A DNA stretch of 9,560 nt from the IMG/VR virus record IMGVR_UViG_3300029070_000029, one strand, 5' to 3'. Positions within the stretch are counted from its first letter, which is position 1, and every line of letters starts with the position of its first letter. Shown piece by piece: positions 7,257 through 7,449 of the stretch. This stretch comes from a virus. Its lineage: Duplodnaviria > Heunggongvirae > Uroviricota > Caudoviricetes. Under the pieces are notes generated by a model. That model worked only from the letters and a program-made list of their open reading frames with translations, did no database searches and was not told where the DNA came from. Made by a program: the position numbers and the translations under genes.

Positions 7257-7288
7257 AATTTAGTACCTATAGTGAGCAAAATTAGAAC

Positions 7289-7310
7289 AAACATAGCAAC
7301 GGCTATGTTT
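7289..7310. promoter_or_regulatory. MntR-type operator (perfect 9-bp inverted repeat) in the sitA promoter
   Basis: AAACATAGC-aacg-GCTATGTTT, a perfect palindrome 33-54 nt upstream of the sitA ATG. It matches the E. coli MntR box as I recall it (AACATAGC-N4-GCTATGTT). Confidence 0.7.
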
Positions 7311-7332
7311 TATAGCATAACCTATACAGAAT

Positions 7333-7351
7333 GAAAATGATTATCATTAAC
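7333..7351. promoter_or_regulatory. Fur box in the sitA promoter
   Basis: gaaaATGATtATCATTAac matches the 19-bp Fur consensus GATAATGATAATCATTATC at 16 of 19 positions by my hand alignment. It lies ~77-95 nt upstream of the sitA ATG. Confidence 0.65.
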
Positions 7352-7449
7352 ATCTTTGAGGCCCAAAACAGGGATTAGTTTGTTTCCTGCTGGATGAAAG
7401 GACTCTTGGGATAGCACATGCCGCACGAAGAGCAGCATTACATGATGTT

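What the first reader, a model, noticed from the sequence alone, without database searches (positions are those of the whole stretch)
7285..7355. Stacked MntR and Fur operators upstream of sitA
A perfect 9-bp-arm palindrome of the MntR type (7289-7310) and a 16/19 Fur-box match (7333-7351) both lie within 100 nt of the sitA start. The prophage cargo operon would therefore be wired into two host metalloregulators, expressed only under combined Mn/Fe limitation and silent otherwise. It is a clean example of a horizontally acquired operon arriving with host-compatible operators.
Basis: partly seen in the sequence, partly recalled or inferred. Interest (0 to 1): 0.45.

Follow-up and report, generated by a model that had tools for sequence, protein, structure and literature searches.

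The report
Fur and MntR operators of phage-borne sitABCD
The promoter of a phage-carried iron/manganese uptake operon (sitABCD) holds binding sites for the host's iron sensor Fur and manganese sensor MntR, a real but already documented arrangement.

Summary
Both motifs are present at the stated coordinates and are far above chance. The palindrome AAACATAGC-N4-GCTATGTTT (7289-7310) has arms identical to the E. coli K-12 mntH MntR operator. The Fur box (7333-7351) matches the consensus 16/19 on the + strand and 17/19 on the sitA sense strand. It scores 22.95 bits with a matrix built from 12 K-12 Fur promoters, above every training site and every shuffle.

sitDCBA lies on the minus strand. The boxes sit 33-54 and 77-95 nt upstream of the sitA ATG (7256) and overlap the predicted -35, -10 and start site. 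Window 3410-8389 is 99.4% identical to the isolated lambdoid phage 4A7, so the "prophage cargo" reading is correct.

The wiring is already published. MntR plus Fur control of sit is reported for Salmonella and Shigella. [quoted passage not shown] A Fur box upstream of lambda-borne sit was reported in 2020.

- A second, degenerate MntR site (7310-7327) lies exactly 19 bp upstream of the perfect one. This spacing holds in all 24 enterobacterial sit promoters examined and in the K-12 mntS promoter.
- A second Fur register (7327-7345) is offset by 6 bp from the first.

"Silent otherwise" is overstated. Interest is low and the feature is already known.

The parts
7333..7351 (-). Primary Fur box (GTTAATGATAATCATTTTC on the sitA sense strand)
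   Evidence: 17/19 to the consensus on the - strand and 16/19 on the + strand. It scores 22.95 bits with the K-12-derived Fur PWM, the best in the window and above all shuffles. It is conserved at a fixed offset from the MntR boxes in Enterobacteriaceae.
7327..7345 (-). Second, overlapping Fur register, offset 6 bp (GATAATCATTTTCATTCTG)
   Evidence: 15.84 bits, the second-best hit in the window. A 6-bp offset is the spacing of overlapping Fur dimers described in PMC2189734.
7332..7337 (-). Predicted -35 hexamer TTTTCA (inferred), inside the Fur site
   Evidence: Read directly from the sequence: 17-bp spacer to TATAAA. T7335-7337 are invariant in the 15-sequence alignment. Not mapped experimentally.
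7310..7327 (.). Upstream, degenerate MntR site (core ATAGG-TTAT-GCTAT at 7312-7325)
   Evidence: Core matches 9/10 and lies exactly 19 bp from the perfect box. Every one of 24 enterobacterial sit promoters has two cores 19 bp apart. The 19-bp period equals 18-bp sites separated by 1 bp, as in cooperative MntR arrays (PMC11882963).
7309..7314 (-). Predicted -10 hexamer TATAAA (inferred), between and overlapping the two MntR sites
   Evidence: It occupies the same place as the TATAAT of the K-12 mntS promoter, which has the same tandem layout and an annotated RybA 5' end.
7289..7310 (.). Downstream, perfect MntR palindrome AAACATAGC-CGTT-GCTATGTTT (18-bp site 7291-7308)
   Evidence: The arms are identical to the K-12 mntH operator. 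The ATAG and GCTA columns are invariant across 15 promoters.
7299..7302 (-). Predicted transcription start (inferred), inside the downstream MntR site
   Evidence: About 7-10 nt downstream of TATAAA. By alignment it corresponds to the annotated RybA/mntS 5' end, which falls in the spacer of the downstream box. Inference only.
7266..7268 (-). Shine-Dalgarno-like AGG, 9 nt before the sitA ATG
   Evidence: Read directly from the sequence.
6342..7256 (-). sitA, periplasmic Fe/Mn-binding protein
   Evidence: ORF; RefSeq annotation of the homologous locus.
3807..6342 (-). sitB (5515-6342), sitC (4661-5518) and sitD (3807-4664)
7257..7393 (-). Upstream DNA that travels with the sit module (promoter plus operators)
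   Evidence: Other E. coli alleles align to the 164-nt query only from position 28, which is window 7393. The window/IAI39 alignment breaks at the same point.
8184..8336 (+). icd' 3' fragment marking the prophage/host junction region
   Evidence: Matches Pfam Iso_dh C-terminus with E=1.9e-4, below the curated cut-off, so the identification rests mainly on the annotation as a partial isocitrate dehydrogenase. Identity to phage 4A7 ends at 8389, and in the phage int-xis follow.

Best explanation
Positions 7289-7351 are the operator region of the sitABCD promoter, read on the minus strand. Fe2+-Fur binds 7327-7351, probably as two overlapping dimers offset by 6 bp, and covers the predicted -35. 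Mn2+-MntR binds the perfect palindrome 7289-7310 over the predicted start site. MntR probably also binds a second, weaker site at 7310-7327 over the -10, with the 19-bp spacing that lets adjacent MntR dimers touch. Either repressor alone blocks RNA polymerase, so full expression needs both iron and manganese to be low. The whole 137-nt control region moves together with the operon, here as a moron of a lambdoid phage integrated at icd. Shown here: the motifs, their statistical strength, their conservation, their co-transfer with the operon and the phage context. Taken from the literature: actual repression by Fur and MntR. Inferred: the -35, -10 and start-site positions, occupancy of the second MntR site, and cooperativity.
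For: - Motifs.
- Fur PWM: 22.95 bits, above all 12 training sites and 200 shuffles, with a second register at a 6-bp offset scoring 15.8 bits.
- MntR arms identical to the K-12 mntH operator, which has the same Fur-then-MntR order.
- Phylogenetic footprint: 22 of 24 invariant columns in a 15-promoter alignment fall in the three boxes, p=8e-8.
- Two ATAGC-N4-GCTAT cores exactly 19 bp apart in 24 of 24 enterobacterial sit promoters, with a Fur box at a fixed offset in Enterobacteriaceae.
- SitA relatives outside this lineage lack the MntR box and carry other metalloregulator motifs.
[quoted passage not shown] A Fur box upstream of lambda-borne sit is reported in PMC6969025 Suppl. Fig. 7.
- A 19-bp period matches cooperative MntR arrays and the mntS paired sites (PMC11882963).
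Against: - No transcription start is mapped for this allele. The promoter scan tool did not call the -10 because TATAAA lacks the final T.
- The upstream MntR box matches the full 18-position consensus only 9/18 in this allele, which is background level when judged alone (compare). Its support is positional and comparative. Its conserved GCTAT arm also overlaps the -10/TGn region, so part of that conservation may reflect the promoter rather than MntR.
- E. coli MntR keeps only the D27/R58 equivalents (D59/R90) of the B. subtilis dimer-dimer contacts, and not K20, Y22 or E55.
- The primary papers on Salmonella and Shigella sit regulation were not available to read.
Confidence: 0.9

Rival explanations
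1. Only one MntR dimer binds, at the perfect palindrome. The upstream half-degenerate box in this allele is a decayed relic, and its conserved GCTAT arm is kept only because it overlaps the extended -10 (TGCTATAAA).
For: The upstream box matches the 18-position consensus only 9/18, and its left arm reads ATAGG here and ATTGC in strain D3. TG-n-TATAAA reads as an extended -10. E. coli MntR lacks three of the five B. subtilis interface residues.
Against: The left arm ATAGC lies in the promoter spacer and is intact in most other genera and in the plasmid allele. The 19-bp spacing is invariant in 24 of 24 promoters and equals the spacing of cooperative MntR arrays and of mntS. In several genera the upstream box is the consensus one and the downstream box is weaker, which suggests the pair functions as a unit.
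Confidence: 0.35
2. The palindrome acts at the RNA level, as a 5'-leader hairpin or intrinsic terminator/attenuator, rather than as a protein operator.
For: The terminator scan flags 7310-7289 on the minus strand: 9-bp stem, 4-nt loop, followed by GTTCTAATTT.
Against: Only 3 G-C pairs are present. The fold of the leader is not better than shuffles (-14.1 kcal/mol, z=-1.26; 23 of 200 shuffles fold as well). Orthologues conserve the sequence (ATAGC...GCTAT) and show no compensatory changes. Their outer arms are often non-complementary and the T-run is not conserved. The predicted start site lies inside the palindrome, so the transcript would carry only half of it. The arms are identical to the mntH MntR operator.
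Confidence: 0.02
3. The four ATAG/CTAT elements form an OxyR tetramer site rather than MntR sites, or in addition to them.
For: A review states that OxyR elements are present in the Salmonella sit promoter (PMC9315381). The OxyR motif is also built from ATAG/CTAT elements.
Against: There is no match to ATAGnTnnnAnCTAT-N7-ATAGnTnnnAnCTAT within 3 mismatches anywhere in the window. The element starts are spaced 10/9/10 bp here, against 11/11/11 for OxyR (read directly from the sequence).
Confidence: 0.03

Closest known systems
Salmonella enterica SPI-1 sitABCD promoter (MntR box plus Fur box; Ikeda et al. 2005, cited in PMC3852070 and PMC9315381)
   Same: It is the orthologous operon with the same order: Fur box, degenerate MntR box, strong MntR box, ATG. 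The 19-bp spacing is the same and the Fur box sits at the same offset (S. enterica arizonae locus L015). Repression by both regulators has been shown experimentally (PMC8970401).
   Different: About 75% SitA identity. It lies in a pathogenicity island rather than a phage. Its Fur box is weaker by my PWM (16.5 against 23 bits) and its MntR arms are less perfect (15/18 against 18/18).
E. coli K-12 mntH promoter (Patzer and Hantke 2001; dual Fur/MntR repression)
   Same: The 9-nt MntR arms are identical (AAACATAGC / GCTATGTTT). A Fur box lies upstream of the MntR box and the start codon lies downstream.
   Different: mntH has a single full MntR palindrome plus one extra half-site. The spacer differs (AAAG against CGTT) and the Fur-to-MntR distance is about 8 bp shorter. 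The gene is an unrelated transporter of the NRAMP type.
E. coli K-12 mntS (rybA) promoter with paired MntR sites (Waters 2011; PMC11882963)
   Same: Two MntR cores lie 19 bp apart, the -10 sits between them and the RNA 5' end falls in the spacer of the downstream core. The promoter aligns with sit promoters through the boxes and into the leader. This fits MntS having descended from a SitA signal peptide (bioRxiv 10.1101/2023.06.02.543501).
   Different: It has no recognisable Fur box and drives a 42-aa protein instead of an ABC transporter.
Lambda-type coliphages carrying sitABCD with a Fur box (Mathieu et al. 2020, PMC6969025; phage 4A7 NC_049946)
   Same: The DNA is essentially the same: 99.4% identity over window 3410-8389. 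The Fur box was explicitly reported there.
   Different: That paper does not mention MntR (0 occurrences in its supplement). The window is the integrated form, joined to host DNA after 8389.
Bacillus subtilis mneP/mneS MntR arrays (PMC11882963)
   Same: 18-bp sites separated by 1 bp, giving a 19-bp period. This is the same spacing as the two sit boxes.
   Different: Those arrays have four sites and activate an exporter. Here two sites overlap the core promoter of an importer and should repress it. The interface residues are only partly conserved in E. coli MntR.

Membership tests
Enterobacterial MntR operator | Inverted repeat matching AAACATAGC-N4-GCTATGTTT, as in the mntH operator | tested here: met
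   18/18 specified positions at 7289-7310. Arms are identical to K-12 mntH.
Enterobacterial MntR operator | Sits on the core promoter of a manganese-homeostasis gene | tested here: inconclusive
   It overlaps the predicted -10/+1 and the gene is sitA, but the start site is inferred by homology to mntS and has not been mapped.
Enterobacterial MntR operator | Conserved in orthologous promoters | tested here: met
   The ATAG and GCTA columns are invariant in 15 promoters. Tandem cores are present in 24 of 24 promoters.
Enterobacterial MntR operator | Bound by Mn2+-MntR, with Mn-dependent repression lost in an mntR mutant | not testable with these tools
   Reported for Salmonella and Shigella sit (PMC3852070, PMC8970401). 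Not shown for this allele.
Fur box | Match to the 19-bp consensus GATAATGATAATCATTATC or to a Fur PWM | tested here: met
   17/19. 22.95 bits, the top of the window and above all training sites and shuffles.
Fur box | Overlapping registers 6 bp apart (Fur site cluster) | tested here: met
   A second hit at 7327-7345 scores 15.8 bits at an offset of 6. The criterion comes from PMC2189734.
Fur box | Fur occupancy in vivo and derepression in a fur mutant | not testable with these tools
   ChIP-seq plus RNA-seq in CFT073 list sitABCD as a direct Fur target (PMC7157518). ChIP-exo evidence is in PMC10164565.
Phage moron (lysogen-expressed cargo) | Located in a non-essential region of a functional phage genome, between the tail genes and att/int | tested here: met
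   35 deposited phage records carry the operon, 27 of them covering at least 80% of it. In phage 4A7 it lies between the tail-fibre genes and icd'-int-xis. Identity to the window is 99.4%.
Phage moron (lysogen-expressed cargo) | Own promoter, transcribed independently of phage late genes | tested here: met
   It is oriented opposite to the tail-fibre genes and has its own promoter/operator module that is shared with non-phage alleles. Expression in a lysogen is reported in PMC9928086.
Intrinsic terminator | G+C-rich stem followed by a conserved U-run, with folding better than chance | tested here: not met
   3 of 9 stem pairs are G-C. z=-1.26. The T-run is not conserved in orthologues.
OxyR binding site | Four ATAG/CTAT elements at 11-bp intervals | tested here: not met
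   No match within 3 mismatches. The spacing here is 10/9/10 bp.

The most novel reading that the evidence does not exclude
The enterobacterial sit promoter is controlled by an obligate pair of MntR sites with an invariant 19-bp period (24 of 24 promoters), not by one MntR operator. This is the geometry that supports cooperative dimer-dimer MntR binding in B. subtilis. The K-12 mntS promoter has the same pair of boxes, the same -10 placement and a similar leader, so it would be the surviving sit promoter. That would extend the proposal that MntS arose from a SitA signal peptide to the level of cis-regulatory DNA. I found no statement of either point for sit in the papers I could read, but the primary sit and mntS papers and regulon databases could not be checked.
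Probability: 0.45. Interest if true: 0.3.

Novelty: already known. Interest (0 to 1): 0.12.

Why it matters
The result confirms that a virulence-associated metal importer spread by temperate phages, plasmids and islands carries its own control region. It therefore comes under the recipient's Fur and MntR control immediately after transfer. That matters for understanding how morons are kept cheap for the lysogen and expressed in metal-poor host niches. None of this is new: both regulators, the phage location and the phage-borne Fur box are published. The only modest additions are the conserved tandem MntR layout at sit and its match to the mntS promoter.

Tried and rejected
- Terminator or attenuator reading of the palindrome. 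The scan tool flagged it, but I rejected it on the fold statistics and on the conservation pattern.
- OxyR site. No match.
- Primary papers (Ikeda 2005, Runyen-Janecky 2006, Patzer and Hantke 2001, Waters 2011) are not held. I relied on reviews and later open-access papers that cite them.
- Chen et al. 2007 has no site list in its main text, so I built a Fur PWM myself from 12 K-12 promoters. Sites were seeded by consensus match, so the matrix is not fully independent of the consensus. Leave-one-out scores are reported.
- I did not build an independent MntR PWM because too few non-sit sites were available. I used identity to the mntH operator and the comparative data instead.
- The sigma-70 scan found no promoter on the sit strand because it requires T at -7. 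The promoter assignment therefore rests on direct reading and on homology to mntS.
- Pfam found nothing for the ORF at 7450-7689 or for its longer IAI39 counterpart.

Full report
**1. Anatomy**

The window holds four blocks:
- Lambdoid tail-fibre genes on the + strand (32-3715).
- sitD, sitC, sitB and sitA on the minus strand (3807-7256, with the sitA ATG at 7256).
- A 0.9-kb non-coding or variable stretch.
- An icd' 3' fragment (8184-8336), followed by the host gene iraM.

The finding's interval 7285-7355 is therefore the region just upstream of sitA, read right-to-left.

**2.

The palindrome has arms at 7289-7297 and 7302-7310. They are 9 nt long, perfectly complementary and separated by 4 nt. 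It is the only match in the window to AAACATAGCNNNNGCTATGTTT, even when 3 mismatches are allowed, and 0.01 matches are expected by chance.

It matches 17/19 on the sitA sense strand.

I built a symmetric matrix from them.
- The sit site scores 22.95 bits, the best in the window.
- It is higher than every training site (maximum 22.0; leave-one-out maximum 20.4).
- It is higher than the best score in any of 200 shuffles of the window (mean 10.1, maximum 18.2).
- The second-best hit in the window is 7327-7345 (15.8 bits), offset by exactly 6 bp. This is the spacing of overlapping Fur dimers described by Chen et al. (PMC2189734).

**3. MntR assignment**

The K-12 mntH promoter contains AAACATAGC-AAAG-GCTATGTTT. 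Both of its 9-nt arms are identical to those in the window, and a Fur box lies just upstream in the same order.

**4. Comparative evidence**

The 164 nt upstream of sitA occur in 2356 of 5426 complete E. coli genomes and in about 980 plasmids. Representative alleles come from four contexts:
- The prophage at icd (strains 536, IAI39 and FDAARGOS_536).
- A different chromosomal site next to uspF/ompN (strain D3).
- A ColV-type IncF plasmid next to IS1 (pECOS88).
- Isolated phages.

In all of them homology starts at window 7393 and includes the boxes.

A scan of one genome per species with SitA returned 80 loci. All 20 Enterobacterales loci carry an MntR-like box 26-76 nt before the start codon. 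Most relatives outside Enterobacterales do not (9-12 of 18 positions, which is background level):
- Alpha-proteobacterial loci often show Mur-like palindromes such as GCAAATGATTTGCAATTGC.
- Photobacterium loci have a Fur box only.
- The exceptions are four Burkholderiales-type loci (L041, L042, L049, L062), which score 13-15 of 18 and each carry a single ATAGC-N4-GCTAT core.

In a 15-promoter alignment, 22 of the 24 invariant columns fall inside the Fur region and the two MntR boxes (63 of 147 nt). The hypergeometric p-value is 8e-8.

**5.

Every one of the 24 enterobacterial sit promoters examined has two ATAGC-N4-GCTAT cores exactly 19 bp apart. In the window the upstream core is ATAGG-TTAT-GCTAT (7312-7325), a 9/10 match.

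Taken as an 18-bp site it spans 7310-7327, one base pair from the 18-bp downstream site at 7291-7308. In some genera (Enterobacter, Buttiauxella, Atlantibacter, Phytobacter) the upstream box is the consensus one and the downstream box is weaker. In the plasmid allele the upstream core is perfect and the downstream core has one mismatch.

A 19-bp period is exactly the arrangement (18-bp sites separated by 1 bp) in which B. subtilis MntR dimers contact each other cooperatively in cryo-EM structures. The same paper notes that E. coli mntS has paired sites with that spacing (PMC11882963). I confirmed the 19-bp spacing in K-12 mntS. There the -10 (TATAAT) lies between the boxes and the annotated RybA 5' end falls in the spacer of the downstream box.

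E. coli MntR keeps the equivalents of the B. subtilis D27/R58 interdimer salt bridge (D59/R90) but not K20, Y22 or E55. Cooperativity is therefore plausible but unproven.

**6. Promoter placement (inferred)**

On the sense strand the sequence reads TTTTCA (7337-7332), then 17 bp, then TATAAA (7314-7309). TG lies one base upstream of the -10. The -35 is inside the Fur site, the -10 lies at the junction of the two MntR sites, and the predicted start (about 7299-7302) is inside the perfect palindrome.

The scan tool did not call this promoter because TATAAA lacks the final T. With this layout, 7291-7351 is a continuous array of metalloregulator sites over the core promoter. That gives a simple occlusion mechanism for both repressors.

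**7. Rivals**

- *Terminator.* The palindrome is flagged as terminator-like on the sit strand. It has only 3 G-C pairs, and the leader folds no better than shuffles (z=-1.26). Orthologues conserve the sequence and show no compensatory changes in the stem, and the T-run is not conserved.
- *OxyR.* No OxyR-type motif is present within 3 mismatches, and the element spacing is 10/9/10 bp, not 11/11/11.
- *Single MntR dimer.* The main open alternative is that only the perfect box binds MntR in this allele and that the upstream GCTAT arm is conserved partly as an extended -10.

**8. Prophage cargo**

Window 3700-7420 is 99.9% identical to, and fully covered by, isolated lambda-type phages (Lambda_4C10, 4A7, 1W, 3W). 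In total 35 phage records carry the operon.

In phage 4A7 the gene order is: tail fibre, sitDCBA, icd', integrase, excisionase. Window 3410-8389 matches that phage at 99.4%, after which the window continues into host DNA. The "prophage cargo" reading is therefore correct, and the window is the right end of an icd-integrated lambdoid prophage.

**9. Comparison with the literature**

- MntR represses mntH and sitABCD in Enterobacteria, and Fur represses them too (PMC3852070, citing Patzer and Hantke 2001, Ikeda 2005 and Runyen-Janecky 2006).
- In Salmonella, sitA-lacZ is repressed by both Fur and MntR, and sigma-S counteracts them (PMC8970401).
- Mathieu et al. found sitABCD on 70% of infant-gut lambda phages. 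[quoted passage not shown] They do not mention MntR.
- In the LF82 prophage Perceval, the sit genes are expressed 4-13-fold above prophage background in LB (PMC9928086). The operon is therefore not simply silent outside double starvation.

**10. Verdict**

The arrangement is already known.

The small additions here are:
- A quantified Fur score.
- A second Fur register.
- The conserved tandem MntR layout with 19-bp phasing.
- The match of that layout to the mntS promoter.
- The clean demonstration that the 137-nt control region is part of the mobile module.

Interest is low.

Noticed in passing
window 7310-7327, with loci L004-L023, L084-L086 and L003 559-591: All 24 enterobacterial sit promoters carry two MntR cores exactly 19 bp apart. 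The K-12 mntS promoter has the same pair, the same -10 placement and a partly alignable leader. This fits MntS having derived from SitA and suggests that the promoter was inherited too.
   Followed up: partly
L086 (pECOS88) about 3066-3110; L021, L018, L016, L014: The relative strength of the two MntR boxes swaps between alleles. In the ColV-plasmid allele the upstream core is perfect and the downstream core has ATAGT. In Enterobacter, Buttiauxella and Atlantibacter the upstream box is the 17-18/18 consensus and the downstream box is weaker.
   Followed up: no
L006, L007, L011-L013, L022, L023 (Pantoea and Erwinia mediterraneensis); L024-L083: The Fur box is absent from Pantoea-clade sit promoters (10 bits or less, and not at the homologous position), while the tandem MntR boxes remain. 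Alpha-proteobacterial SitA relatives have Mur-like GCAAATGATTTGCAATTGC palindromes and no MntR box. Photobacterium has a Fur box only.
   Followed up: partly
window 7394-7895: The variable cargo segment between the sit module and the conserved prophage end differs between strains. It is about 0.5 kb here, about 1.5 kb with a 256-aa hypothetical protein in IAI39, and holds GNAT and HTH genes in strain 536. The ORF at 7450-7689 contains an R-x4-H motif (EIRNKLAHG) reminiscent of HEPN domains, but it and its IAI39 counterpart have no Pfam hit.
   Followed up: partly
window 8184-8389: An icd' 3' fragment (50 codons) lies here, and identity to phage 4A7 ends at 8389. In the phage, integrase and excisionase follow; in the window, host iraM (8439-8762, minus strand) follows. 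This is the same chromosomal site as the e14 element of K-12.
   Followed up: partly
L097 2848-5264 (phage 4A7): The isolated phage 4A7 carries three transposase ORFs, apparently an IS element, between its tail genes and the sit-proximal genes. The window matches the phage only from 3410 onward and diverges in the tail-fibre region (68-86% identity).
   Followed up: no
window 8118-8136: This is the third-best Fur PWM hit in the window (13.3 bits; TAAAATAATTTTTATTATT), in an AT-rich stretch just before the icd' fragment. It is within the range of shuffle maxima and is probably a chance match.
   Followed up: no
L003 684-1148 (K-12 MntR) against PDB 1on1: E. coli MntR conserves D59, R90 and G91, the equivalents of B. 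subtilis D27, R58 and G59 at the dimer-dimer interface. It has V52, E54 and I87 in place of K20, Y22 and E55.
   Followed up: partly
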